From the NCBI GenBank assembly GCA_965113315.1, contig OZ220367.1: a stretch of 64,000 bases of DNA, one strand, 5' to 3'. Position numbers and translations under genes: made by a program. Under the pieces are notes generated by a model, which saw only the letters and a list, made by a program, of their open reading frames with translations, ran no database searches and was not told the origin of the DNA. Below, piece after piece: positions 11,809-59,918 of this stretch. The stretch is from Podarcis vaucheri (taxonomy: Eukaryota). Position 1 is the first letter of the stretch. Each line of letters begins with the position of its first letter.

Positions 11809-14414
11809 ATGAAAGCCTATGGGTCTGCATTTCTGAAGCAGCCCTTCCCACAAGCCTGCATTTTCTTCTTGCAGAAGGTGATCAAGTCAGTGATTTTAGC
11901 TATAAGGTGTGGCAATAGGAGAGGGAGTTATCAAGGATTGAGTCACTTCTGGTCTCCTTGATGGTATTGGGGTGGGGCTTTAACTGGCCCCACAGTTTTC
12001 CACAAAACGTCTCAGGATTCCATCTGTTCTAAACCTTGGGCTTGTTTGTGGATGTTATTTTCGCACACATTGTGACTGTGGGAAATTTAATAAGGTCTCA
12101 AATAGGACATGTAGGTTTGTCAGAAAAATGATATAGCAGATATTCTGTTGGTGTCAGTACAGCAAGAACCTATTTTCAGTGGTTTATATGAGTTCCAACA
12201 GACATTAACAAGATTAATGAGATTTCAGCAAATGCATAGGAAAAACACTTTATGTTTTGGCTTTATAATTATATTCTATAGTGTGTGGAAAAAACAAGAA
12301 TTTTCCAAATATAAAAAGAGTGTTTGATAATGAGGTTTAATGTCAGCCTGTCTATTCAGCAAAGACTGCAGTCTTTAAGAACTGGTGTTATCTGATATTT
12401 GAGTTAGTTTCGGGTTGCTCCATTTTACACAAATTTATTATTGATTCCCAAGGCCTGTTAAACCAATGATAGGAATACTTACGAATGTGCATGGAGGCAC
12501 AACATTATGACCTTCTTGTAATGACAAATGTTATTATGAAGCTTTGATGTAGCAATCCTGAAACTTAATTTTTTGAGGGCTGAGTGCTTGATTGTCTGCT
12601 CACGCCAAAGGCAGAACTGCACGTGTTAACCTTTGGAATTAGCTTGAGTCAGGCTCATTAGCTTGCTGTGTTCAGCTTAACCAGAACATTATGGACAATG
12701 TGGAAGTCTTTCTTTAGCACAGGACTGGGGAACCTGTGACCCATCAATTGCTTTTGGACTACAAATTTCATAATAGAATCCTAGCAACCTGACCATTGAC
12801 CACATTAGTAGGGGCTGAGAAGAGATGGTGACTAACAGCCTCTGAAGGACCACAGGTACCCAGACCTTCAAGATTTTGAACTCTACATGCTGACACAATG
12901 TAGTTGGACAAAAATCGACTTCAAAATCCTAAAGCACTAATGGGGCACCTGTGGTTCTCCATATGTCCCACTTTTGATTTAGGATTTAGAACCCTTATTT
13001 TTGCCCAGCTGCATATCAATATGCATGTGCAACAGCATCATTTTTATGTTCTTAGTGTTTTTTAATAGTATTGAAGTAGCATAATTTATTGCATAGTCAT
13101 GCAGCCTTTCTGGCAGCTGGTAGGAGTATGCTGCAGGCCATGTTGCATTCCCACTGGAGGTGAAGAGCAACCATCAATTGGTGTCAAAATACGCTCGTAA
13201 CTTTTCAGCTCTTTCACTTGATGGCATAACAGAAGGTGGGGTGAACATATTTAGTGTTTTTGAAGTAGGTACATAACAAGCTACAGAGTCTGTGGTTCCC
13301 AGATTGTGTGTTAGCCTTTGTGTAGACATTTTTCTCAGCTGCTTCTGCCTTCATCAGTGTTATGTTCCTGTGTGTGTGTGTGTGTGTCAGACAAACCTAT
13401 CCATCTTGCTGGGGTGGGGAGGAAGTTTACAGTAGGTAGAGTCTGTGCAGAGAATTGTGTTCCTCTAAAGATTCAGCCCAGCATAATTATCCTACTTTTC
13501 AGGAGTGGCTTGCTGTAGTTATACAAACCTACTTCTCAACCTCTTCCACTTCTCCCCCACCCTATCAGCCATATAGCTGCTATACAGAGTCCAGGAGCCA
13601 GCATACTACCCCGCCTTCCAAAATATGTATTCACAATGCAAGATATCTCCTCTTAACTTAAAGCCAACTTTGACCATTTTAATCACTTGCCTTTCCCCAT
13701 AGAACTGCTTTTTTATTTTTTTTAAAAAAGAGATGGGAATGCAATTTTGGGGAGTGATTGTCAAAATAGAGCTTATTTATGGCAACAATTTATTTAAAAC
13801 TGAGGGCCAAGCTAGGAACTATTACAGGTTCTTTAAGGCACTAGATCACATAGGAAACTGAGAGAATATTTAAATTCCTGAGTGATAGCGTTTTTAGAAG
13901 CCTCAGCAAACAGATGGCTAAGATTCTTCCAGTCCTTCCCTAAGTTAACATAGTTACTACACCAAGTTTTATATCCCCACTTCAATTGTTTTTGTTTTTG
14001 ACTATGCCAAGACTATAGAAGTCTGTTGGTTGTCATCCTGAATTATATACAGTTAATTGAATATGAAAATTGAGCCTGTATGTATGTAACACTTTGAAGA
14101 ATTGTGTTGTTGTGCATTATTACAGATGATGGCGAGCATCCAGATAACTACTTTAGGCATATCCAACATCTCAGGCATGCCTAGTGGGATTTTTGATCTC
14201 TTCATGGTGTTATCACAGACTGCTTTTGAAAGCCCCTTCAAAGTACTTTGCTACACAGTACAGAGAGGCTGTGTAGTGTTAGTTTGTGTTATTTGCAGAC
14301 TAACATTTATGCGCACAAATACTCTATAGCTGGTAGGATGAAACACATAGACATCTTTTTAGCTCTTAAAAAGCCTGCTTAAAATTAAATTCCAACTCTT
14401 TTCCTGTCTTACAG

Positions 14415-14535
14415 CTTTAAAGAAATATGCATTGTTACAATTTTATTTTGGAATTGATGAAGTGGAAATACAGATGAAACAAGTTTGCAGGATATCAACT
14501 CTACAGCACCATTTCATCCCACTCATCAGCAAAAG
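14415..14535 (+). other. BMPR1A: BMPR1A non-coding 5'UTR exon (putative)
   Basis: Acceptor ctctttttcctgtcttacag| and donor aag|gtaac, 121 nt. The sequence gaaatatgcat...ttggaattgatgaagtggaa resembles the human BMPR1A 5'UTR exon 2 as I recall it. Confidence 0.75.
14427..14477 (+). CDS. Upstream ORF (16 aa, MHCYNFILELMKWKYR) in the BMPR1A leader
   Basis: ATG at 14427 and TGA at 14475-14477, inside the putative UTR exon. Translation is not shown by the sequence. Confidence 0.5.
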   Translation: MHCYNFILELMKWKYR

Positions 14536-15043
14536 GTAACAAACATCCATTCAAAAAGGGGCTCAATTCAAATATAACATTCTTATGGGCTGTTGGATTA
14601 GAAATGTTAACTTTTATTTAAAGCACCAATATCCTGCCTATCTTAAAAGTTCAAGGTGGCTAGCAAAATTCTGGGGGAGGGGGGCCTATAATATATCTCC
14701 GGGTCAGATTCAAAGCTGCAAATAAACAAAACAAAACAAAAAAACAAGAACCAGCCTTCCTTGCTGTGCTGGTTTTTTAGTCCTCACTGTAGCAGGAGGG
14801 CATGAGTTTCATTACAGGCACTTGAAACATAATTGACAATCAGCGTCCATTGTATTTCATATTTGAAAATATCATATAAAATGCCTGTTGGCTCTCCTTG
14901 TTGGAGAGGCTGATTAAATCTCTTTTCAGGCACTTTGTAAACTTCTAGGCAAACTATCAACCAATCCTACTGGTCAGAGTGGCTGAGAAGATCAAAAGGG
15001 ATGGTGCCTTAACCCTTGGCAGAAAAATAATAATAGTTTAGCA

Positions 15044-22440: not shown

Positions 22441-25400
22441 TTACAAAGTCTCTTTAAACCCCACTAGCGTTGTTTGTTGATCACATATAGTTCCCAGATA
22501 TGCCGCAAACTTCCCCCAGTCCTCGGTGAATTTTTGATCTTTTTGATATCTTATTCTTCCAGTCAATTTATCTAATTCCGCGTAATCTATAAGTTTCATC
22601 CTCCAGTCGCTCAGGGTCGGCATTTCCTCCTGTCTCCACCTCTGGGCCATCAGTATTCTTGCCGCTGTCACAGCATATTGGAACAATTTATAGTCCCGTC
22701 TTTTTATCTCTCTTCCTGTTATACCTAGTAGGAAGGACTCTGGCTTCTTAACAAACGAATAACTAAAGATCTTTTTCAATTCACAATAAATCGAATCCCA
22801 GAAGCCCCTCACCTTCCTACACTCCCACCACATATGAAAGAGAGATCCCTCTTTTTCTTTGCATTTCCAGCACTTATTACATGTCTTATACATTTTAGAC
22901 AACTTTGCCGGTGTGATGTACCACCTGTACACCATCTTCATTATATTTTCTTTCAGTGCTGTACATGCAGTGAATTTCATATTTTCGTTCCATACCTTTT
23001 CCCAATCCTCTAATTGTATGCTGTGACCAAGATCTCTGGCCCACTTAATCATAACCGACTTGATTTCCTCGTCCTTTGTTTGCCATTCTAAAAGTATTTT
23101 GTACATTTTCGAAATTATCTTCACATCATTGTCAATTATTTCTAATTGAAATTTAGACACTTTTTCTATATATCCCCTTTCTTTTAGATCCTTGTTAAAC
23201 ATTGCATTTGCCTGGAAATAATGTAACCAATCATAGACCTGCTCCTTCACTTGTTCATATGGCTTAAATTTCCATTTTTCCCCCTCTTTCACTACCAAAT
23301 CACCATAAGTTATCCAATTTGATCTCATATTCGTTTTTTTTACCGACATTACCTCTAGTGGAGACAGCCAATGCGGAGTTTTGAATTCCAGAATATTTTT
23401 GTATCTGTCCCAAACCTCTATTATGGAGCCCCTAATAACATGATTAGTGAAACTTTGGTGGATTTTCTTCTTCTCCCGCCATAAATAGGCATGCCATCCC
23501 AATCTATTATCATGGCCCTCTAGATCTAACAGTTTATTATTATTTAGTTTTATCCACTCCTTTAGCCAGCAAAGACAAGACGCCTCGTAATAGAGTTTTA
23601 GATCTGGCAGGGCAAAACCGCCTCTTTCTTTTGCGTCTGTCAACAGCTTAAATTGTATCCTTGGCTTCTTGCCCTGCCAGATATATCTCGAAAGCGTTCT
23701 TTGCCAGTCTTTAAATACACTTATTCCCCTGATTATAGGGATCATCTGGAACAGAAATATCATCTTTGGTAGCACACACATTTTGACCGCTGATATTCTG
23801 CCCCAAAAGGACAGTTTCATTCTACCCCAGGTTTCTAAATCTTTCTTTATTCCGTTCCACACCTGAGTATAATTATTCTGATATAGATCAATATTTTTGG
23901 GGGTCAACCATATTCCCAAATACTTTACTTTTTTGGCCACATCAATTCCTGATTCTCGTTGCAACTCATCCACCAGAGTCAGATCAATATTCTTAGCCAT
24001 TAATTTTGTTTTTTTCTTATTTAAAGTAAATCCAGCCATTTTGCCAAACTCTTCTATTTCCTTCAATGCCTCATTCAAGCTGTTTTTTGGTTCTTCAATC
24101 GTTATTACTATGTCATCCGCAAAAGCTTTGATCTTGTATTCATTTTTACCGACTGTAACCCCCTTTATATTGTCATTGTTCCTTATTGAACCCAGAAGGA
24201 CTTCCAGGACTGTTATAAATAGTAACGGCGAGAGAGGGCACCCCTGTCTGGTACCTTTCGATATTTTAAACTCTTCTGTATATACATTATTCACAATCAA
24301 TTTAGCTCTTTGTTCCGAATAAATTGCCCTTATTCCGTTGTAAAATTCATTCCCCACTTCCATCATTTCTAAATTTTTTAACATAAATTCCCACGATACA
24401 TTATCGAAAGCCTTCTCTGCGTCCACAAACATTAATAAGGCTTGCTTCTCAGTCCTTACAGACAGATATTCCAAAATATTAATTATGTTCCTAACATTGT
24501 CTCTCATCTGCCTGCCCGGAAGGAAGCCTGCCTGATCTACATGGATTATTTCTTGCAATATCTTCTTTAATCTCTTTGCTAATATTCCAGCAAAGATCTT
24601 GTAATCTGTGTTTAACAGAGATATTGGCCTATAATTCTTTACTTGTGTCAAATCAGTGTCTTGCTTTGGAATAAGTGTAATAAAGGCCTCTCTCCACGTT
24701 CCGGGGATATCCTGTTGTTGTAGTATGTTATTCATGACTTCCTTTATTGGTACTATTAGGGCGTGCCTCAGTTCTTTGTAGTAACTAGATGTTAAACCAT
24801 CTGGTCCTGGTGCCTTCCCTTTCTTCAGTTCTTTTATTATTTCTATTATTTCCTCATTTACTATTGGGGCGTTCAGTCGGTCTTTCTTATCTGTTGGGAT
24901 CTTTTTCACATCTTTTTCCTTTAAAAATCTTTCTATTTTCCTCATGTTATTCTTTTCTCTATTGTTATATAAATGTTTATAGAAATCCAAAAATCCTTTC
25001 CTAATGGCTTTGGGATTCTCAACTTCTTCTCCCTCTAAGATGATTTTATTAACTGTGTTTTGTTCTTTCCTTTTCTTAATTTGCCACGCAAGCCATTTGC
25101 CGGATTTGTTAGCGAATTCAAAGTTTTTCTGTCGAAGCCTTTTGATATTCCATTCCACCTCTTTGTTAATAATCATTGCAAATTGTGCCTGCAGGACTTT
25201 AATATTCTCTTTTATTTTTGAGCTGTTTGGGTTCTTAGTTAATTTTACTTCATTATCCATTATTTGTTTTAAGATCTCCTTCTTCCCTTTCTCCCTATTC
25301 TTATTCTTAATCGCATTCTGTTGAATAAAGAATCCTCTTATAACTGCCTTGCTTGCATCCCAAACTATGCTCATTTTTGTGCCTTTGTTCATATTATCTG

Positions 25401-26205
25401 TAAAGTAGTCTATCAATTTTTTCTTAGCCTCCTGAACAAGCTTCTGGTCAGCTAAGAGATAATCATTAAGTCGCCATCTGAATGATCTTTCTTCATATCC
25501 TTTAACCTCCATTTTTATTGGGCTGTGGTCTGATATTGTTTTTGGTTGTATCTCAATCTGTCGAATTCTTGGAGTTAGCTCACTGGAAACCCAGATTTGA
25601 TCAATTCTTGATAAAGACTTGTTTGGTTCCGAATAAAACGTAAATTGCTTCTCCAACGGATGTCGAAGTCTCCATATATCAATTAAATTAAAGTTTTTTA
25701 TCATAGTAAAGAAAGTCTTGGGCAATTTTCCTTCTCTACTTACGTCTTTTTCTCTAAATCTATCGATTTCCAACGAGACCACCCCATTCATATCCCCCAT
25801 AAGTATCATTTTTTGGTCCATGTATTCAAACAATTTCTCTTCCAAGTTTTTATAAAAATCAGTTTTATTTCCATTAGGTGCATATATCCCAACAATTATT
25901 ATTTTTTCTCCTTGCCATTTAATCTGTATTGCAATTATTCTACCTTCTTCATCTTTGAAGATTTGTTGCGCCTCAATGTTCTTTTTTACATATAATACAA
26001 CCCCTCTCTTTTTCCCTTTATCAGAGGACACAAATTCGTTTCCTAATCTATTGTTAATCAATATTTTCCTGTGCTTCTTTGCCACGTGTGTTTCTTGGAG
26101 GCAGATAATATCAAGATTTTTCTTTTTTAGGCATTGTTCGATTTTGTTTCGTTTTTTCTTGTCATTCATACCGTTAATATTCCAATTCCATAATTTTAGC
26201 GCCAT
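22441..26205 (-). CDS. L1 ORF2p: APE-type endonuclease, reverse transcriptase and C-terminal zinc knuckle (1254 aa, uninterrupted)
   Basis: EN motifs WNING, LQETH, GIYAPN, GDMN, SRIDQ, SDH. RT motifs KAPGPDG, YRPISLLNTDYK, DAEKAFD, GTRQGCPLSPLLF, FADD, YLG. C-terminal CWKC...HMWWEC. Confidence 0.97.
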   Translation of the reverse strand: MALKLWNWNINGMNDKKKRNKIEQCLKKKNLDIICLQETHVAKKHRKILINNRLGNEFVSSDKGKKRGVVLYVKKNIEAQQIFKDEEGRIIAIQIKWQGEKIIIVGIYAPNGNKTDFYKNLEEKLFEYMDQKMILMGDMNGVVSLEIDRFREKDVSREGKLPKTFFTMIKNFNLIDIWRLRHPLEKQFTFYSEPNKSLSRIDQIWVSSELTPRIRQIEIQPKTISDHSPIKMEVKGYEERSFRWRLNDYLLADQKLVQEAKKKLIDYFTDNMNKGTKMSIVWDASKAVIRGFFIQQNAIKNKNREKGKKEILKQIMDNEVKLTKNPNSSKIKENIKVLQAQFAMIINKEVEWNIKRLRQKNFEFANKSGKWLAWQIKKRKEQNTVNKIILEGEEVENPKAIRKGFLDFYKHLYNNREKNNMRKIERFLKEKDVKKIPTDKKDRLNAPIVNEEIIEIIKELKKGKAPGPDGLTSSYYKELRHALIVPIKEVMNNILQQQDIPGTWREAFITLIPKQDTDLTQVKNYRPISLLNTDYKIFAGILAKRLKKILQEIIHVDQAGFLPGRQMRDNVRNIINILEYLSVRTEKQALLMFVDAEKAFDNVSWEFMLKNLEMMEVGNEFYNGIRAIYSEQRAKLIVNNVYTEEFKISKGTRQGCPLSPLLFITVLEVLLGSIRNNDNIKGVTVGKNEYKIKAFADDIVITIEEPKNSLNEALKEIEEFGKMAGFTLNKKKTKLMAKNIDLTLVDELQRESGIDVAKKVKYLGIWLTPKNIDLYQNNYTQVWNGIKKDLETWGRMKLSFWGRISAVKMCVLPKMIFLFQMIPIIRGISVFKDWQRTLSRYIWQGKKPRIQFKLLTDAKERGGFALPDLKLYYEASCLCWLKEWIKLNNNKLLDLEGHDNRLGWHAYLWREKKKIHQSFTNHVIRGSIIEVWDRYKNILEFKTPHWLSPLEVMSVKKTNMRSNWITYGDLVVKEGEKWKFKPYEQVKEQVYDWLHYFQANAMFNKDLKERGYIEKVSKFQLEIIDNDVKIISKMYKILLEWQTKDEEIKSVMIKWARDLGHSIQLEDWEKVWNENMKFTACTALKENIMKMVYRWYITPAKLSKMYKTCNKCWKCKEKEGSLFHMWWECRKVRGFWDSIYCELKKIFSYSFVKKPESFLLGITGREIKRRDYKLFQYAVTAARILMAQRWRQEEMPTLSDWRMKLIDYAELDKLTGRIRYQKDQKFTEDWGKFAAYLGTICDQQTTLVGFKETL

Positions 26206-26224
26206 CTTTTTCCAAATTAAGTTA

Positions 26225-26263
26225 TTTATCTAATTGATTTATCTAATTGATTTATCTAATTGA
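26225..26263. repeat. Three perfect copies of a 13-bp unit (tttatctaattga) in the L1 inter-ORF spacer
   Basis: Copies at 26225-26237, 26238-26250 and 26251-26263. Confidence 0.95.
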
Positions 26264-30020: not shown

Positions 30021-33003
30021 ACCACCACTACTACTCATTTTTACTTCATTTTTCCCTCCCCTTTCCCTCCTCATTCAGTTACTCCACTTTCCAGTTACAC
30101 AAATTCTGATTTGATAATTGAAAATCATATAGAGCTGAAAGAGGAAGTGAAAAAGAGCATTACTCTTCTAATTTTGTTCTTAAGTTCTAGTACTTTCGGA
30201 GGGGTGGTGGTGTGGTAACCACCCTCATCACAAAGTGGGTAGTGAGCCAGGGATAGGACACTATTGCGTGTCACATGGAGTATCACATTGGCCACTCCAG
30301 TTGTGAACAAACATGGCAATTTAAAATCTTTTAAAATATTCTGAAATGCACAGTCCTCTGTTATAGGCAAATTGTTTGTAATGCATTTTATTAATATCAA
30401 ACAAGTGCATGTAAATCTTACATAGCTGATCCTAAAACATTAAGCCAGTTCATTTTGTTCTTTAAATTGCACCCAGAAACCCTCCTAATCAAAGCATTTC
30501 TTTGTTGAACATAGCCTCATTTTTTGCACTTTAATTACTTCATTTTCTTTTTTATTACAACGATTACATGGCATTGAAACAACTCTGAAAGGCTTTTTCC
30601 TCTGGCTCTCAGAGAACTCAAATGTCTGAGCATCTTTCAGAATGTATTAGAGAAAAGCTTTAAATGGCCAGGATAAGCAAGGGTTTATTTTAGGAGTATG
30701 TGTTAGCCCTTGTTGATAGGGTGAGGTAAAAATCAAGTAAGTTAGTATGCTACATACAGGAAACACAAACGACCAAGGTCTGCCACTCTAGAAGCATAAG
30801 CTTAGTGTAACTAAATCCTAGTGGTTTATGCAAGTTAGCTGTGCCACAAGTTATGTGGTAAGGTGAAAAAACACCAGCTCATCAGCCAGTTGATCCCCAG
30901 GGAAAACTGCAATCTGGCTCCGGATATGGGTCATGAAAGCAGGATTTGCAGCTCTGCCTGCCTGCCTGCAATCTCTGATTCTTCAAGGGGGAAAAGAAAG
31001 TAAAAAATAAAATAAAATAATCTTAAAGTCATGGTCATTGTCTTAGGTTCTTACACTTGGTTCTAGATAAACTCCTCATCCCTTATATATAATCAGCTTA
31101 ATTTTGGATACATGGGTCCTTTTAACCCTATTGTTTTTGGGCCATCAGAAGTCAAATGCTCACACATCCAGGAGAAAGTCCAGCAATGTTGACTATTACT
31201 GGTGTGGGGACCCCATATTTGACAGTCTTTTGTGCTGATTTGTGTGAGTTCACACATTTTACAGTGTCTTGCACCCAAGGAAAGCTTTGGGCTGGATGTG
31301 ATTCAATGCCACCTTGTTGAGGACACTGTCCTGGATCTGTGGGTATATGATTTATGGTGCCCAAAAATATTTTGGGGTCACACACAGTTTCTTAGTCATT
31401 CCTATGTTCTTGGACTATATTTGGCATGTGAATGCTATATTTTGACACTGACTTGCACTGAAGGAAAGTGTTGGGCTGGATTCAAATACCATCTTATAAA
31501 AGAAATTTGAATGCTTCTTTTGGGATGATTCAAAACTTACGACGGGGCGTACAGCCCAACTTATTAATTTTTAAATTGTTATCTGAGGTCATTGTGCATT
31601 CATGACCATTACACATGCACAACAATTTTGACTGGGGAAAATTATTCTGGAACTGAAAGGAGACAATCTGCCAGTCATGGAAACGTGATTCAGGGATATA
31701 AAAACTTTAGGTCACTTTTTTAAAAGGTTTTCTAAATAAGAATCGATTCTGTGACAATATTCAGGGCTGTGTACAGTCTGAAATGGCACAATAAAGCAAA
31801 TGTAAAATCAATACAATAAAAGCTGAAGACTTTTTGAAACAGCAACACTATCCGAGACCTAAAGGCTAAAATACTCATTGAGACTTTTAAAAGAAGCTTT
31901 AGGTGGAGATATTCTGGATAACTATTATACTCTGGGCATAGCCCAACGTTGAATATGCATCAATTGCTGTACCCACAGATAGGCTATTCCATTGCAGTGG
32001 TTCTATTTCTTGTAGTGAGGAAGCTGCTTTGTTTCTTCATTACTAAGAAGTCACAGATGTGTGAAAAGTAGGCCACAGGTCGAAGGCTGCATGCCCCCTG
32101 CATGCGCAAATTGAAAGTGACAGACACCTCTATGCTCTGCCAGTAATTTGCCTCCATGTTAAATGCCTATGAAGCAGTAATTAAAATGAAAAGTTCTTGG
32201 GTCCTGCCAACAGACAGATTGAGTTATTTATGGTAGAAGCAGCCACTAACAGTAATTGCAGCACATCCTTGAACAAATACAAGTTTTTTTCATTCAAGAA
32301 TAGCGCCAGGCTGACAGGGGTCAGGAGGTCAAGCCCACTCAAACAAGAGGCCAAAGAAAGGCAAAATCAGTGTTCTGTTCATCTTAACACAGAATCTGTA
32401 TTGTCTATATTAACTACCTAGGTGTCCAAATTGCTGTTTATTCCTCTGAGACCTAGTTAGGCCCTATTAATCATTTCAAAAACATCACTGTGAGATTACT
32501 AAAAGCTGCTACATTTTAATATAACCATGTTTGCCCACTTTGTTTCTGAAGTGTACTTCAAAATGGTAGAGCAAATTTTACTGCCTTCCTTTTTATGCAG
32601 TTGAGCAAACATTGGAAAAGTGTTTTCTAGACAGCTTTGTATTTAAAGAAAAATCTTTTTTTTCTAGTAGATGTTTGTGCACTGGTGTGTTAGAATGGAA
32701 TTACTATCATTTTTTTAAAATTCTAAGTTCTACAGCAATTTCACATTTTTAGCTACATAGATGTTATCAATCAGCTAGTTGTCAACTATTAATTTTAAAA
32801 TGTTGTATAGTTATCCAATGGATTAAAATACAAATAGGTCATATTTTAGTCTTTTAAATATACTTGTACATGTTTTATCACTTCAAGCTTTTACTGTATC
32901 TTGTCCATTTGATACCCTCCTACCGTTTTCAGGGTTTGGGGAAATTGCATAATTTTATTCATCTGTTCAAAAATGCAATTTTGTTTCGTTTCTTTTTTTC
33001 CAG

Positions 33004-33150
33004 AAAACAAATTGGAATAATTAAACCATTGCTTCAACTGGCCACCAAGTCTTCTAGCAGATTTTGCTAAACAGTCCAGCTTAGAACTTGTCAAGCAGCA
33101 GGGCAGTTTGCCAAAGTTGACAGTGCACAGGAAGGATTTATATTCGAACA
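33004..33150 (+). other. BMPR1A: BMPR1A 5'UTR part of the first coding exon
   Basis: Strong acceptor ttgtttcgtttctttttttccag| ending at 33003. The sequence aaagttgacagtgcacaggaa...gaacaATG resembles the mammalian leader as I recall it. Confidence 0.75.
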
Positions 33151-33217
33151 ATGATTTGTCTGAAAGTTTACATCAGATTGCTGGGGTTCTATGCAGTCAT
33201 CATTTCTCAAGTTCAAG
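33151..33217 (+). CDS. BMPR1A: BMPR1A coding exon 1 (signal peptide MICLKVYIRLLGFYAVIISQVQG)
   Basis: ATG in acaATGa context, 67 nt, donor G|gtaaag. Matches the BMPR1A signal peptide pattern YIRLLG..IIS.VQG. Confidence 0.92.
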
Positions 33218-33880: not shown

Positions 33881-35372
33881 TTGTTATTATTTATGCAGTT
33901 CATACTAAACTCAATGATAAAATTCCTTTGTATTTTAAATGGTGCAGCATTTGCATCTGTTGACTAATTTCCATCTCTATGGACAGTCTTAATTCAGTGA
34001 AAGCTTCAGATATTTCTGAGTTAATGTGGCGGCTATAATATTTTTAGACGAAAGGCCCTAAAAGAAAAAGGGCACAGTGCACTTAAGGAATCTAAGCTAT
34101 CAAGTTCTTTCCTCACACAGGGAAGATTACCTAGTGAATAGCACACGATGCTAGTCAGAAGAGTCTGCTAGCCTCCTTTTGACAAGGAGGGAATCAGGGT
34201 AGATATGGTTGTTTTTATGAGACTAATTACTTGAGACTAATTGCAAAGTCATTATTCAGGTATAGGCCTCTCTGAATCACCCAGAAGACTATGTAAACCG
34301 TGAGCTGAGTCATGGAAAAAGTCAATCAACTGAAATTTATAGGCATAGGCGAAGGTTCATTTAAGCGAGAAAGCAAAGATGTTAGAGATATCCAAAGATA
34401 CCTGCCTGTTTTATTTATTTAAAGTATTTAAATACTGCTGCTCAGTTCAACCTCATTAAGTGGTTCACAAAAGAATATCACAACAGGCATCATTTTAAAA
34501 AGTTACAATAAAATGGAAATGCAACTGGTTGTTTAGAAGAAGCAGTAACAACGTTATTTGGCTCCTGGACTCCGTTGAGCATGCTCAGTCCTTGGAGGGC
34601 ACAATGTTGGTGAAGGCTAACTTAGATTCTGTGCCCATTATGGTAATAGTAATTGAAATAATATTCTGATTTTATGAATATTTGTTAGAGGAAACTCAGT
34701 TTAATCTGAGAGATGTGGCCTTCCCAACCTTGTGCCCCCCAGATGTTTGGACTACAACTCTCATCAGCCTCAGCCAGTGCAGCCAATATTCAGGGATGAT
34801 GGGAATTGTAGTCCAATAACATCTGGAATGCCACAGGTTCCTCACCCCTGCTATAGAAGTATTCCTACGCATGATCCTAAGCAAAGTAGAAGTTTGTACA
34901 AATTTAGTAGGAATAAAAACTCAACAACCAAATGAAAATTTTAAACACCTTACTTTTTGAGATAATGTCAAAAAAAGAGAAATGCATTTGGAATTCATTT
35001 CCATAAAATTTCATATAATTATCAGGACAGAACTAACATTTATGTTATTAAAACATAAGTATTGTATTATGCTCAGCTGCCTGCAATATCAGAATGTTAA
35101 CATTGATATTTCAATTACCTATGCTAATTTATGTTTATGCTTGTTAATTTGAAAGTTAGATTTTAAAAAAATTAAAAAGAAATCTGTGGTGGTTCACTTA
35201 CAGGTAAATAAGTTTTCAAGTTAGGTTTTAAGTATGCAAATGAGCATTCCAGGTTTGCTTTGGGACCAAAACAGAAGGACTATACAGAGGCTACTGCAGC
35301 CGAGAGTTCTAAACCTTCAGTGTAACCCTGCCTTCCGAAACAAACCATTATTTTTGTATCTACATTATACAG

Positions 35373-35535
35373 GGCAGAATCTAGACAGCATGCTCCATGG
35401 GACAGGGATGAAGACTGATCCTGATCAGAAAAAGCAGGAAGATGGAGTCACCCTAGCTCCAGAGGACACGTTGCCCTTTTTGCAGTGCTACTGCTCAGGG
35501 CACTGTCCAGAAAATGCCATTAACAATACATGCAA
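35373..35535 (+). CDS. BMPR1A: BMPR1A coding exon 2 ([15 protein letters not shown]...[17 protein letters not shown])
   Basis: ag|...|gtaagt, 163 nt, activin-receptor-type ectodomain start. Confidence 0.97.
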
Positions 35536-55028: not shown

Positions 55029-55408
55029 TCAAGTTTTGAATATCAGAAATCCAGCCATGCTTAATCCAGCTGGGTTCTGCTTCGCTCCAGTGCCCTGCAC
55101 CAGTTCAAACCACATGAGCTCACCCTTCTTGAGCTCCACAAGTGCAAAAGTAGCCAGAGAGCCTCCACTTGCCTTTCTCTTTTTGGTGTCGATGAGCGTC
55201 ATTCTTTGCCGGTTGCTGAAGACCAGTTGCCCCAAGGCAGGTCCTGGTGCAAGCTCCACGCTGATGGCAACAAGGTAAACCCCAGTATGAGGAGACTTGA
55301 AGTAGCCGTGTTCAGGGAAATAACCCCCTCCGTAATTAAGATATGTTCCGTTGAGGCTCAGCTCTCCTCTGGCTTCCGAATACCTCACATAAAAGGCCAC
55401 GTAGGTAC
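55029..55408 (-). CDS. MMRN2: MMRN2 (multimerin-2) last coding exon, gC1q domain
   Basis: Acceptor ctctcccccatctag|GT ACC TAC. Encodes VAFYV...YLNYGGGYFPEHGYFKSPHTGVYLVAISVE...GFLIFKT*, a C1q/EMILIN-family C-terminus. Position tail-to-tail with BMPR1A matches known synteny. Confidence 0.93.
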
Positions 55409-57184
55409 CTAGATGGGGGAGAGGGAGAGTTTACATAACAGTGCTTACAGTTATCCAAAGTCCCAGAACATTTCCAGTTTACCAGGCAAGATGCTTTCAA
55501 GTGTGTCCCAGGCCAGGCGTTGAAGTGAGCTTCCATCTCAAAAACAAGGTAAGTCTTCCATTTCCCCAAACTCTTCCCCGCTTGGATATTGAGTACAGCT
55601 GGATAATTCCTGGATTTGCCACTGCCGCCTCCTCACATTACAAAGCCACCCCTGCCCCACCCACCCCCCCTTTTGCCAGGTACTCGGATGAGGCAAGAGG
55701 GGAATGGGGAGGCAAGAGTGGAGGTATTTTTCTTTCCCTCTGACTAGGTTTTTGGGCTTATGGGAGTGGTAGTTGCCCTAAGGGCTTCCGTAACGGGAAA
55801 TATTCCATGGCACACTGTTGGCAACTATGACAGGATAATGGTTTTTTTTGGGGGGGGGGGACCTCTTAGTGTACATTTGTTATAGCTGCCACTAGGTGAA
55901 GAGAAGGGAGGGGATGTTGGGGGGGCAGTGGGGTGGCGAGACCATCTTACCAAATCTGCAGGTTGGCTCTGGAAATTTGTATGGGTTTTCCCAGTTGTCA
56001 AAATGTTGAAACACACCTTTCTAGACTACAGCTCAGGGAAAACAAAACAAAAGCACTATTCTGCCAGGAGATGGAGCTACACTGTAATTCAACGAGCAAA
56101 CTAATTCAAGAAACCACTGTTGAGTTCCGTGCCTCTTTAGCACAAACTCCCTGAGTTATTTTCTTCACCGTTTTACATAATTGGCCGTCTCACGGCACCC
56201 ATGCCGCCCTTTCAGGAAATACAGTAGTTCCAAACAATTCAAGTGGAAACTAAGGTTCGTTTGGATAGGATAAGACTTTAAAATACCCAGTATTATCTTT
56301 GCCCCCATTTGTGAAACTTACAGTATCTTATGTGCCCTTTTGTTCCATGCAAACCCACCCCTGTAAGCAAAAGTGGCACTCCTATAGAAGAGGGAATTTC
56401 AACAACTTTTAAATACTTATTTTCTTTCTGTGCAATGGATTGCCTACTTTCCACGCTCCAAGCAAACTCTGGTTTAAATTGAAAACGCTCATTTGATGCT
56501 AAGCTTCAGAAACTGCTGGCATCATAATGGCTCTTGTGCCTTTGTTAGGACGTGTTCCGTCAAAATTCAGAGTGTAGTGGACTAAATGTTCTCTTCTGTA
56601 CTTATTGACAGGACTGGCTTGATGAAGTCCAGAAGCTTCCTGATCAATAGTTCAGAATACGAGTGGAGTTTGCCGAGAGGAAATACGAAATAGATCTAGA
56701 AGTTCCTGTGGACATGAAGCTGCCCAAAGTGGCTGGGGCAACTCAGCCAGATGGGTGGGGTATTATCATCATAATCAACAACAATATCATATGCTTTAAT
56801 GCAATTGAAATTTAAGAAGTTGCCTTATGCTAGGTCAGGTTATTTGTCTGCCAGGGATGGGGGAATCTTTGGCCCATTGTATGTTGCTAGACTCCAACTC
56901 TCATCATTCCTGACCATTGGCCACGCTGGCTGGGGCTGATGGGAGCTGGAGTCCAGCAGCACACGGAGGGTCCCAGGGCTCCCTGCCCATGGCCAAGCCC
57001 ACAACTGCCTAGTCTGACTGACAGCAGCTGTTCATGGATGTGAACTAGTTCTTTTCTAACCAGGCTTTCCCAAGCTGTAGAACACCCTTCCAGCAGAGAT
57101 TCGGCAGGCATCTCTTGGGAGACTTCCTTTGTGCACCACCCTGACGTTTTGTGAGAGGGCAGTATATAAATACTTTTATAAGTA

Positions 57185-57410
57185 CAGTGGGACCTTGGTT
57201 GCTGAACTTAATCCATTCTGGGAGCCTGACTCCCAGAACCATTCAAAAACCAAGATGCGGCTTCCGATTGGCTGCAGGAGCTTCCTGCACTCAATTGGAA
57301 GTTTGGCTTCCAAAAAATGTTTGCAAACCAGAACACTTCCTTCTGGGTTTGCGGCGTTTGGGAGTCAATTTGTTGGGGAGCCAAGCCGTTTGACAACCTA
57401 GGTACCACTG
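57185..57410. mobile_element. Tc1/mariner-type MITE
   Basis: ta|cagtgggaccttggttg ... caacctaggtaccactg. Confidence 0.8.
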
Positions 57411-57596
57411 TCAATGAAATATTTACACTTTTCTTTTGCATCACCCTGGAACATATTGATGGAGGGTAGTTAAGAAATATTTGAAATATAATAAACTTTC
57501 CCAAGCTGGCTGGGCCTGATGTCCAAAACATCTAGAGGGCCTCAGGTGGGTAAAGCATGATGAGGTTATTATAGGGAGTTGATGGAAGAAACATAC

Positions 57597-59471
57597 CTGT
57601 CTCCAGGATCTCTGCATGTATCTTGTTTCTTCCGTTTAAGGTACCTTCCCTACGACTGCTGGCTTCTTTCTTGTCTCTCATTTTTTGCCCCTCTTGAAGC
57701 TGCTTCCTCATCCTCCTGCCCACCAGCGACTGAATCTTTGTGACATCCAAGCTTACATTTGCAGCGGCTAATTCCTTGTTGCTTCCAAACAGCTTTTGAA
57801 AGATCTGCAGGTGCTCTTCAAGGATTTGCTGGGCTGACGCAAGGTCTTCCCTCAAATTCTCCACTGAGCCACTGAGTGGTTCCACTAGGCTGGCTATGGT
57901 GTAATTACAGCAGAAATTGGCACCATCTCTCTGCATCTTATATTTATGCATCTCCCTGCTGAGGTGCCTAATCTCTTTCTTCAAAGTCATGATATCGTGA
58001 TATGCTGGGTTATCCAGAGGATCCTCCATGGCAGCTTCATGGTTTGGCTCCATGTGTTCCACTCCACTGCGTTGGGTGGTAACCTCCTGCACTGTGTCCT
58101 CTGTTTTCCTTTCCAACATAGGATGCTTAAGAGATATATGGACATTGGGGTTGTCTCCATGGTCCATCATCTCCAAAGAGTGAATTGTCTTCATAAGATA
58201 TTCCAGTGTAAAATTTTGCTCCTTGAGTTCGTCAGAGATTAGCCTGATAGTCTTTTGAAGCTGCTCTATGGATAATTCTATAGGACTTGAGTCCTCTTCC
58301 AACAAGATCTCCATGTTTTCTTCTCCAAGCAAGGCCTTTAGTGCTAGCTCATGTCTCATTGCATCAAACAACAAAGAGTTAAAAGAGCTGTTGAGATATT
58401 TGATATGCCCGTGCATCTTCTCATCATTTTTTTCTAGGATGCCAATATTGTCAGACAGCTTTTCTGCATGAGAATTGAGGAGGGACATGCCACCTTCCAG
58501 CTTTTGACTCTGCTTCTGTTGGCTTTCTAGAACCTGATGTATAATAGGGAAAGCTGCATTAAGATCCTTTAAGCGTGCCTCAAGTTGCTTTATTTCTTCT
58601 CTGTTGACCTGAGTGATGTTCACTAGATCTTCTGTAACAACATGTGAAGATGGTGTTTCGCAATGACATGCTTTCAGAGACCTCTCTAGATCCCAGTGGC
58701 TGTCTTCAATATTGGACAGAGTGTTGTTGAGAGCAAGAATCTTCCTTTCCAGATCATCCCTGTATTCTTCTATTATAAGACTCTTCTCTATTAAATCAAC
58801 TCTGAACTCCTCCAGGTCGTGCTTCAAGGTGGCTTTCAAGTTCGCAATGGAATCGGTTAGTTCTGTGTAGTCCTCATCAGACTCATCAAAAATTTTGGTC
58901 AGCTGCTGTGCATGTGCTGCCAGGGTCTCATTGAGGATCTGAATGTCCCTCTCAATAAATGCTTCGTTTTGGCTGCCAAATTGTATTGGGTATACTGCTA
59001 AATTTCTATTCAGAGTCTTGAGCTCATCTTCAAGCTTGTTCTGCTGCTGTCTCATGTCTGTCAGGCTGCTGTTTAAGGCTGACAAATAGAAGTGTTGTGT
59101 CTTTTGGTGTCTCTTGAGCTTCAGATCAGTGTCTGCTTTGATCATGGTGAGATTGTAGTGTAAGGCTGCCTGCTGTGAGTGCAAATTACTCTCTATTTCT
59201 CTCTTCACATGGTCCACTCTCAAAATGTTGGTTTGAACCTTGGATTCAAACTTCGTTCCCAACTCCTGAAAATCTTTCTTGGGCACGGTGCTTTCTTGGA
59301 ACCTCTCTATACTTTTCCGATTGGCCTCGACATTCTTTGAGAGATTTTTCACGGCAGCAGAAAGATCCTGTAGACTTTTATTGAAGCTTGCCCAGACTGG
59401 GTCGAAATGCCCCTTCAAGAAACTCTGCACATGGGGAAAGAGTGTTTGCTGGAGGAATTGCTCCTGTACTT
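57597..59471 (-). CDS. MMRN2: MMRN2 large coiled-coil exon (1875 nt, phase 1-1)
   Basis: gtatttcag|AAGTA ... ACAG|gtatgt. LQQTLFPHVQSFLKGHFDPVWASFNKSL...VEANR...DFQELGTKFESKVQ matches multimerin-2. Confidence 0.95.
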
Positions 59472-59918
59472 CTGAAATACAAATAAAAACAATATAAGGT
59501 AACATGGGCAGTTATTCCTTTAGAATTGTGTGGCTGCCTTTGACGTCAATTCGGAAACTGCAGCTGGTGCAGAATTCAATGGCCGCACTGCTGGCTGGAG
59601 CAAGACAGTGCAAGAAGATAACACTTTATTGTGGCACAACTGCATTGGGTACCAATTAGCCCAAGCCAACTCAAAAGTGCTGGTTTGGACCTATAAAACC
59701 GTATGCCACTCAGGAACCCCCATAGCTCAAGGGCCACCTCTCCCTACATGAACCACACCAGATTGGTGTGACTCATAAATACAGTTAATAATCATTAGAT
59801 GCCGATGATGGAATCATAGCTCACCCAACCCTGAACACTCAGGCCAGCTCAAGCACTCCCCCAGCAAATATACTTAGGGCAGGACAAGCAGCACATGAAT
59901 TATTATGTAATACAACTA

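What the first reader, a model, noticed from the sequence alone, without database searches (positions are those of the whole stretch)
14427..14477. Probably peptide-conserved uORF in a non-coding BMPR1A leader exon
Seen: a 121-nt exon-like block 18.5 kb upstream of the start codon contains ATG...TGA encoding MHCYNFILELMKWKYR. From memory, not checked: the human BMPR1A 5'UTR has an ATG at the equivalent place reading roughly MHQFNTVLEFMRWKHR.... That would keep M-H-x-aromatic-N-x-aliphatic-L-E-x-M-K/R-W-K-x-R with conservative changes. Inference: amino-acid-level conservation from lizard to mammal would point to a sequence-dependent regulatory uORF or micropeptide controlling a dosage-sensitive receptor.
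Basis: partly seen in the sequence, partly recalled or inferred. Interest (0 to 1): 0.75.

Follow-up and report, generated by a model that had tools for sequence, protein, structure and literature searches.

The report
Ancient overlapping uORFs in BMPR1A leader
The small upstream reading frame in this lizard's BMP-receptor (BMPR1A) leader exon is real and is one of an overlapping pair laid out as in the human gene, where both are already catalogued as ribosome-covered; the pair likely dampens receptor synthesis through where it starts and stops, and a role for the peptide itself is possible but untested.

Summary
The ORF 14427-14477 (16 codons) is real. It lies in an exon whose acceptor is used in 4 of 4 RNA-type contigs laid, 18.6 kb before the start codon of a lacertid BMPR1A. 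Its human counterpart is already catalogued: Ribo-seq uORF c10riboseqorf70, 'conserved', 9 of 16 residues identical, but 29 codons long, PhyloCSF negative, 0 MS studies.

All 4 contigs carry an ATG 20 nt before the junction, as does human c10riboseqorf69, which the catalogue labels 'primatomorpha - young'. Start context, frames and a stop/start overlap are kept; the N-terminal peptide is not.

Peptide-level selection is not shown. Human-lizard differences fall 3:4:4 over codon positions (hand count), 5 of 13 residues still match past the lizard stop, and in three distant contigs the near-identical block runs beyond the ORF. The last five codons leave the peptide reading open.

Best reading: an amniote-old overlapping-uORF brake on BMPR1A translation (0.55). 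Searches of this scan's earlier notes found no BMPR1A finding.

The parts
14415..14535 (+). Leader exon 2 of BMPR1A (121 nt)
   Evidence: AG acceptor at 14413-14414 and GT donor at 14536-14537. Acceptor joined to a GC-rich upstream exon in 4 of 4 contigs. Donor use inferred, not shown.
14427..14477 (+). uORF-B (the finding): 16 codons, A at -3; counterpart of human c10riboseqorf70
   Evidence: The human ORF starts at exon position 13 too, 9 of 16 residues identical (compared by eye).
14415..14457 (+). Exon-2 part of uORF-A, which starts at an ATG 20 nt before the junction in exon 1 (outside the window); 20 codons in all; counterpart of human c10riboseqorf69
   Evidence: Loose ends of 4 of 4 contigs. 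Frame read: 13 codons, then two TGA in a row. The human ORF has 20 nt in exon 1 and 46 nt in exon 2.
14455..14460 (+). Stop/start overlap: two tandem TGA of frame A overlap the internal ATG (Met11, 14457-14459) of frame B
   Evidence: The human uORF-A stop falls on the second TGA position, and Met11 is kept.
14474..14535 (+). Start of uORF-C: its ATG overlaps the stop of uORF-B; it would run 42 codons and end 80 nt before the main ATG if spliced to 33004
   Evidence: predicted splice. The human frame-B residue at this place is Ser, which excludes an ATG there (deduced).
14416..14487 (+). 72-nt block with only 1-2 other letters in three distant RNA contigs, against 13 of 30 differences right after it
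   Evidence: tables 7 and 8; Fisher p about 1e-6. The runs were found by shared words, so the block is selected for likeness.
33004..33217 (+). Predicted first coding exon; main ATG at 33151 (A at -3); no ATG in its 147-nt untranslated part
   Evidence: The acceptor is predicted from sequence; an alternative AG at 32933 exists.
35372..35533 (+). BMPR1A ectodomain coding exon (gene identity)
   Evidence: best matches are BMPR1A chains, E 8e-30.

Best explanation
Exon 14415-14535 is a spliced leader exon carrying two overlapping upstream ORFs laid out as in human BMPR1A, and they likely act as a translational brake through the position of their starts and stops and less through their peptides. 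Scanning ribosomes would first meet the exon-1 ATG (A at -3), translate 20 codons and stop on the TGA that overlaps Met11 of the second frame. Ribosomes that leak past it would meet the ATG at 14427 (A at -3) and stop about 205 nt before the main start. The receptor would then be made only by double leaky scanning or by reinitiation after these short ORFs, so output per mRNA would be held down. The DNA likely stays conserved because several demands fall on the same bases: two start contexts, two frames kept open, the stop/start overlap and the splice acceptor region. Shown: sequence, acceptor use, matching geometry, catalogue calls of both human ORFs. Inferred: joining to the coding exons in the lizard, translation in the lizard, repression, and independence from peptide sequence.
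For: Geometry is the same in lizard and human: first ATG 20 nt before the junction, second ATG at exon position 13, first stop at exon positions 41-46 on Met11. The five letters before the first ATG are the same in human and in 4 of 4 contigs, while only 5 of the next 16 visible letters and 2 of the first 7 residues match (by eye). uORF-B length is not kept (16 against 29 codons). PhyloCSF is negative for both ORFs and MS support is 0. By hand from the two overlapping human peptides, 11 of 36 determinable bases differ, split 3:4:4 over codon positions (chi-square p 0.91). 5 of 13 residues match beyond the lizard stop. In distant contigs at most 2 of 21 bases outside uORF-B differ, where about 9 are expected (p 0.001). 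Three of four callers give non-zero values for both human ORFs.
Against: No reporter or lizard Ribo-seq data, so repression rests on general uORF biology (own knowledge). A flat substitution pattern and negative PhyloCSF are also expected if both overlapping peptides are constrained. The human-lizard conserved core (exon positions 11-60) coincides with uORF-B, and codons 12-16 keep 3 identical plus 2 conservative residues. The similarity score is borderline at the minimum of 12 substitutions (P 0.07-0.11) and significant at 15-18 (P 0.014 or less). Start-site selection alone does not fully explain 70-71 of 72 identical bases in the distant contigs. Only one mammal and four contigs of unnamed organisms were compared.
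Confidence: 0.55

Rival explanations
1. uORF-B encodes a sequence-dependent regulatory peptide (ribosome stalling or a micropeptide).
For: 9 of 16 identical with human, no gaps, and labelled 'conserved' in the human catalogue. 5 of the 7 changes have BLOSUM62 scores of 0 or more (by eye). The tail outside the overlap keeps W13, K14 and R16. Score P is 0.014 or less if 15 or more bases differ. At most 1-2 differences over the whole ORF in three distant contigs.
Against: Stop not kept; negative PhyloCSF; 0 MS studies. No third-position excess in codons 1-12, and the four identical degenerate codons there (His2, Asn5, Leu8, Glu9) keep their third base (hand deduction). Identity also past the stop. 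Several conservative changes are single-base changes that the genetic code buffers anyway.
Confidence: 0.25
2. The exon-1-initiated uORF-A, or both frames together, is under peptide-level selection, so the overlap is a short dual-coding stretch.
For: In the exon-1 part, 4 of 5 variable sites among the four contigs are silent third positions of frame A (p 0.022, post hoc). At exon positions 11-40, frame A keeps 7 of 10 residues with human (P 0.02-0.04). Dual coding would explain the near-invariant DNA.
Against: The 11-40 window was chosen after seeing the data; over all 13 exon-2 codons identity is 7 of 13 (P 0.13-0.20 at 13 substitutions). Only 2 of the first 7 residues match human. PhyloCSF mammals is -163 and the label is 'young'. 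Three of the four contigs are close to each other, so the sites are not independent.
Confidence: 0.1
3. The block is conserved for a reason other than translation (exonic splicing enhancer, RNA-binding-protein site or DNA enhancer), and the ORFs are passengers.
For: Conservation is at base level, abuts the splice acceptor and extends on both sides of uORF-B. The 3' half of the block is purine-rich.
Against: It does not explain the ATG in exon 1, kept with its context at exactly 20 nt from the junction while the bases between have diverged. No stable fold (z 0.54). No Rfam match near a family threshold.
Confidence: 0.1

Closest known systems
Human GENCODE Ribo-seq uORF c10riboseqorf70 (BMPR1A), Sandmann et al. 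2023, PMC10032668, supplementary file 2 (one row seen); also Yang et al. 2024, PMC10908861, file 11
   Same: Same gene, exon, start position (13) and frame; 9 of 16 residues identical; listed as conserved.
   Different: The human ORF is 29 codons and the lizard ORF 16; the lizard stop overlaps a third ATG that human lacks.
Human GENCODE Ribo-seq uORF c10riboseqorf69 (BMPR1A), same tables
   Same: ATG 20 nt before the exon 1/2 junction, same five preceding letters, same frame, stop on the same six bases, 7 of 13 exon-2 residues identical.
   Different: Catalogued as 'primatomorpha - young', whereas a positional counterpart is present in 4 of 4 contigs laid here. One codon shorter; N-terminal peptide diverged.
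Repressive uORF clusters of developmental signalling genes, e.g. mouse Ptch1 (Fujii et al. 2017, PMC5316868; search listing only; Ptch1 detail from an earlier scan note)
   Same: Several conserved upstream AUGs in the leader of a signalling receptor.
   Different: Reported as functionally dissected; in my searches no such test was found for BMPR1A.
Animal conserved-peptide uORFs (CPuORFs; Takahashi et al. 2020, PMC7530721; abstract, outline and three passages seen)
   Same: Short uORF with cross-species peptide similarity.
   Different: Sequence-dependent repression is untested here and synonymous excess was not found in codons 1-12. BMPR is absent from the main text; the supplementary list was not seen.

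Membership tests
Translated upstream ORF in a spliced leader | AUG-to-stop frame wholly upstream of the main start | tested here: met
Translated upstream ORF in a spliced leader | Block is an exon of a mature transcript | tested here: met
   Acceptor joined to an upstream exon in 4 of 4 contigs; three contigs run 935-4351 nt further.
Translated upstream ORF in a spliced leader | Exon is joined to the BMPR1A coding exons in this species | tested here: inconclusive
   Donor use not seen; X16 runs 16 nt into the intron. Inferred from the human transcript.
Translated upstream ORF in a spliced leader | Ribosome occupancy | not testable with these tools
   No lizard data; the human counterparts are in Ribo-seq catalogues.
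Orthologue of human c10riboseqorf70 / c10riboseqorf69 | Same gene, exon position, frame and gap-free similarity | tested here: met
Conserved-peptide uORF (CPuORF) | Peptide similarity across distant species | tested here: met
   9 of 16 identical with human.
Conserved-peptide uORF (CPuORF) | Excess of synonymous over non-synonymous change | tested here: inconclusive
   Flat 3:4:4 in codons 1-12 and negative PhyloCSF, but the overlap confounds both, and the third positions of codons 12-16 are undetermined.
Conserved-peptide uORF (CPuORF) | Conserved stop position (usual for C-terminal stalling peptides; recalled) | tested here: not met
   16 against 29 codons.
Conserved-peptide uORF (CPuORF) | Repression depends on peptide sequence | not testable with these tools
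   Needs reporters.
Structured RNA cis-element | Stable or family-matching fold | tested here: not met
   z 0.54 for the 73-nt block and -0.80 for the exon; three Rfam matches, all far below their thresholds.

The most novel reading that the evidence does not exclude
The BMPR1A leader holds an amniote-old dual-coding stretch in which one or both overlapping uORF peptides are under selection and control receptor dose by sequence-dependent stalling, or by a stop/start hand-over at Met11. The human ORF catalogued as primate-young would then be hundreds of millions of years old, and variants in human leader exons 1-2 could change BMPR1A dose.
Probability: 0.25. Interest if true: 0.6.

Novelty: new member of a known kind. 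Interest (0 to 1): 0.33.

Why it matters
BMPR1A is dosage-sensitive (juvenile polyposis; a pathogenic exon-1 deletion is listed), so a conserved translational brake in its leader is a place where non-coding variants could act. The lizard copy shows that the two-uORF layout is shared with human, and that an ORF labelled 'young' in the human catalogue has an old position and frame. Conserved uORFs in signalling genes are common, though, and both human ORFs are already listed.

Tried and rejected
Own genome: none held.

Orthologue searches: a degenerate DNA pattern found 0 matches in metagenome contigs. Protein searches with the third frame and with frame B read through its stop found no candidate among proteins of 22-70 aa. 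These blanks say nothing about conservation.

Exon 1: its motif is not in the window, so it lies further upstream. The 17-letter downstream loose end of X16 is not in the window either.

Cis-element ideas: RNA structure and Rfam gave nothing. The inverted repeat at 14431-14441 is rejected as the conserved feature, because it sits where human differs most.

N-terminal extension: rejected, because all upstream frames stop before 33151 with either acceptor.

Correction: one search placed the exon-3 acceptors one base late. Its frame and length figures for the third uORF are superseded.

Literature: Mackowiak 2015 (PMC4568590) gave one mouse Bmpr1a row, an internal ORF unrelated to the leader; 7 files were not searched. 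Full-text searches listed no paper whose title or abstract start is about BMPR1A uORFs; the ORF ids occur in 0 main texts. I did not open the listed papers that mention both terms, such as PMC7850738.

Full report
Observation. window:14427-14477 reads MHCYNFILELMKWKYR*. It lies in a 121-nt block, 14415-14535, with a pyrimidine tract and AG before it and GT after it. The main ATG is at 33151. The next coding exon matches BMPR1A ectodomain chains at E 8e-30 and BMPR1B at 6.5e-6. The neighbouring MMRN2 ORF is 96% identical to a Lacerta agilis protein and 75% to the next hit, so the window is from a lacertid lizard. An ORF of this size is common by chance: 45 of 234 intronic 121-nt blocks have one.

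Is it an exon? Of 24 runs listed I laid 4: X16, a close relative whose RNA status is a guess, and X18-X20, RNA libraries with a small word share. Each gave one contig. All four begin to match at 14414-14416 and continue upstream in a GC-rich sequence absent from the window, so the acceptor is used and exon 1 lies further upstream. X16 matches without difference to 14551, 16 nt into the intron, and then differs; it does not show the donor. X18-X20 continue for 935, 3860 and 4351 nt downstream, lengths that fit a full mRNA, but only 30 letters of that part are visible. Joining to the BMPR1A coding exons is therefore inferred from the human gene.

What is already known. Supplementary file 2 of Sandmann et al. 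2023 (PMC10032668; two rows seen, main text not read) lists two BMPR1A uORFs. c10riboseqorf70 starts at position 13 of the same exon, is 29 codons long, is labelled 'conserved', and has PhyloCSF -10.17 (primates) and -97.91 (mammals) and 0 MS studies. c10riboseqorf69 has 20 nt in exon 1 and 46 nt in exon 2, is 21 codons long, is labelled 'primatomorpha - young', and has PhyloCSF -37.18 and -163.29 and 0 MS studies. Yang et al. 2024 (PMC10908861; 2 of 6 places in file 11 seen) list both ORFs with value 2 for RiboTish, RiboTricer and Price and 0 for RiboCode; I take non-zero as called, without having read the legend.

The upstream loose ends of 4 of 4 contigs hold an ATG exactly 20 nt before the junction. 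It opens the frame that reads FKEICIVTILFWN in the window and ends in two tandem TGA. This is the layout of c10riboseqorf69: same distance and same frame, with the human stop on the second TGA. The stop overlaps Met11 of the other frame, which human keeps. The five letters before this ATG are the same in all four contigs and in the human exon-1 sequence printed in a ClinVar row. Only 5 of the next 16 visible letters and 2 of the first 7 residues match. A kept start and frame with a diverged peptide is the pattern of a position-dependent uORF (own knowledge). A third ATG at 14474 overlaps the stop of uORF-B and would give 42 codons ending 80 nt before the main start; human has no ATG there (deduced).

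Is the peptide selected? Evidence against. (a) The stop is not kept. (b) The two overlapping human peptides fix the human bases at 36 of 37 exon positions 11-47 (worked out by hand, not by a tool); 11 differ from the lizard, split 3:4:4 over frame-B codon positions (p 0.91 for flatness; p 0.02 against an assumed 70% at third positions). (c) With 11 random substitutions, 6 of 12 identical residues is ordinary (P 0.40-0.52; score P 0.10-0.16). (d) Read past its stop, the lizard frame still matches 5 of 13 human residues (P 0.001 by chance; not different from 9 of 16, p 0.46), so the whole exon is homologous at DNA level. (e) In X18-X20 the block 14416-14487 has 1, 2 and 1 other letters in 72, against 13 of 30 right after it in X18 (p about 1e-6), and it extends 21 nt outside uORF-B (p 0.001). 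These runs were found by shared words, which biases towards such a block, and the differing positions were not listed.

Evidence for, and caveats. A flat pattern and negative PhyloCSF are also what two constrained overlapping frames would give. Codons 12-16, outside the overlap, keep 3 identical and 2 conservative residues. The whole-ORF similarity score has P 0.07-0.11 at the minimum of 12 substitutions, 0.014 or less at 15-16 and 0.002 or less at 17-18; up to six silent positions could not be determined, so this test is open. Frame A gives its own weak hint: 4 of 5 variable exon-1 sites among the contigs are silent third positions (p 0.022), and 7 of 10 residues are kept in a window chosen afterwards (P 0.02-0.04), falling to P 0.13-0.20 over all 13 exon-2 codons.

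Mechanism. Both upstream ATGs and the main ATG have A at -3. Most likely (0.55) the pair captures scanning ribosomes in series. Because uORF-A covers the start of uORF-B, a ribosome would use one or the other, and the receptor would be made by leak-through or by reinitiation over the roughly 205-225 nt to the main start. Repression is inferred, not measured. Rivals: a sequence-dependent uORF-B peptide (0.25), frame-A or dual-frame peptide selection (0.10), and a non-translational cis-element (0.10). No stable fold or RNA family was found.

Novelty. Both human ORFs are catalogued. My full-text searches (listings only) showed no study devoted to them. The supplements of PMC7530721 and PMC13275300 were not seen and may already list uORF-B as a conserved-peptide or constrained ORF; 7 files of PMC4568590 were not searched. 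Searches of the scan's earlier notes found nothing on BMPR1A, but they include an analogous overlapping pair in SLC20A1. What this window adds is a lizard orthologue and a sign that the 'young' uORF is old in position. This is a new member of a known kind; interest 0.33.

Noticed in passing
window 22444-26229, minus strand: Uninterrupted 1261-codon reading frame with endonuclease and reverse-transcriptase domains: an apparently intact LINE ORF2, antisense, inside the intron between the leader exon and the first coding exon.
   Followed up: partly
window 14536-14551: Contig of run X16 is spliced at the 5' side of the exon but runs 16 nt into the intron and then continues with 17 letters not found in the window; partly spliced RNA or a species difference, unexplained.
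   Followed up: partly
window 14417-14535: The third reading frame is open across the whole exon and holds the ATG at 14474 that overlaps the uORF-B stop; no protein relative found.
   Followed up: partly
window 14431-14441: Inverted repeat ATTGT-T-ACAAT inside the ORF, resembling paired SOX-type sites (motif recalled); not kept in human.
   Followed up: partly
window 14446-14534: The predicted fold pairs the end of uORF-B with the exon's 3' end in a long helix, but z is only -0.80.
   Followed up: partly
window 32933: A second good acceptor 71 nt before the predicted one; using it would add an ATG at 32973 to the leader.
   Followed up: no
window 55032-59511, minus strand: MMRN2 coding exons, tail to tail with BMPR1A.
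   Followed up: partly
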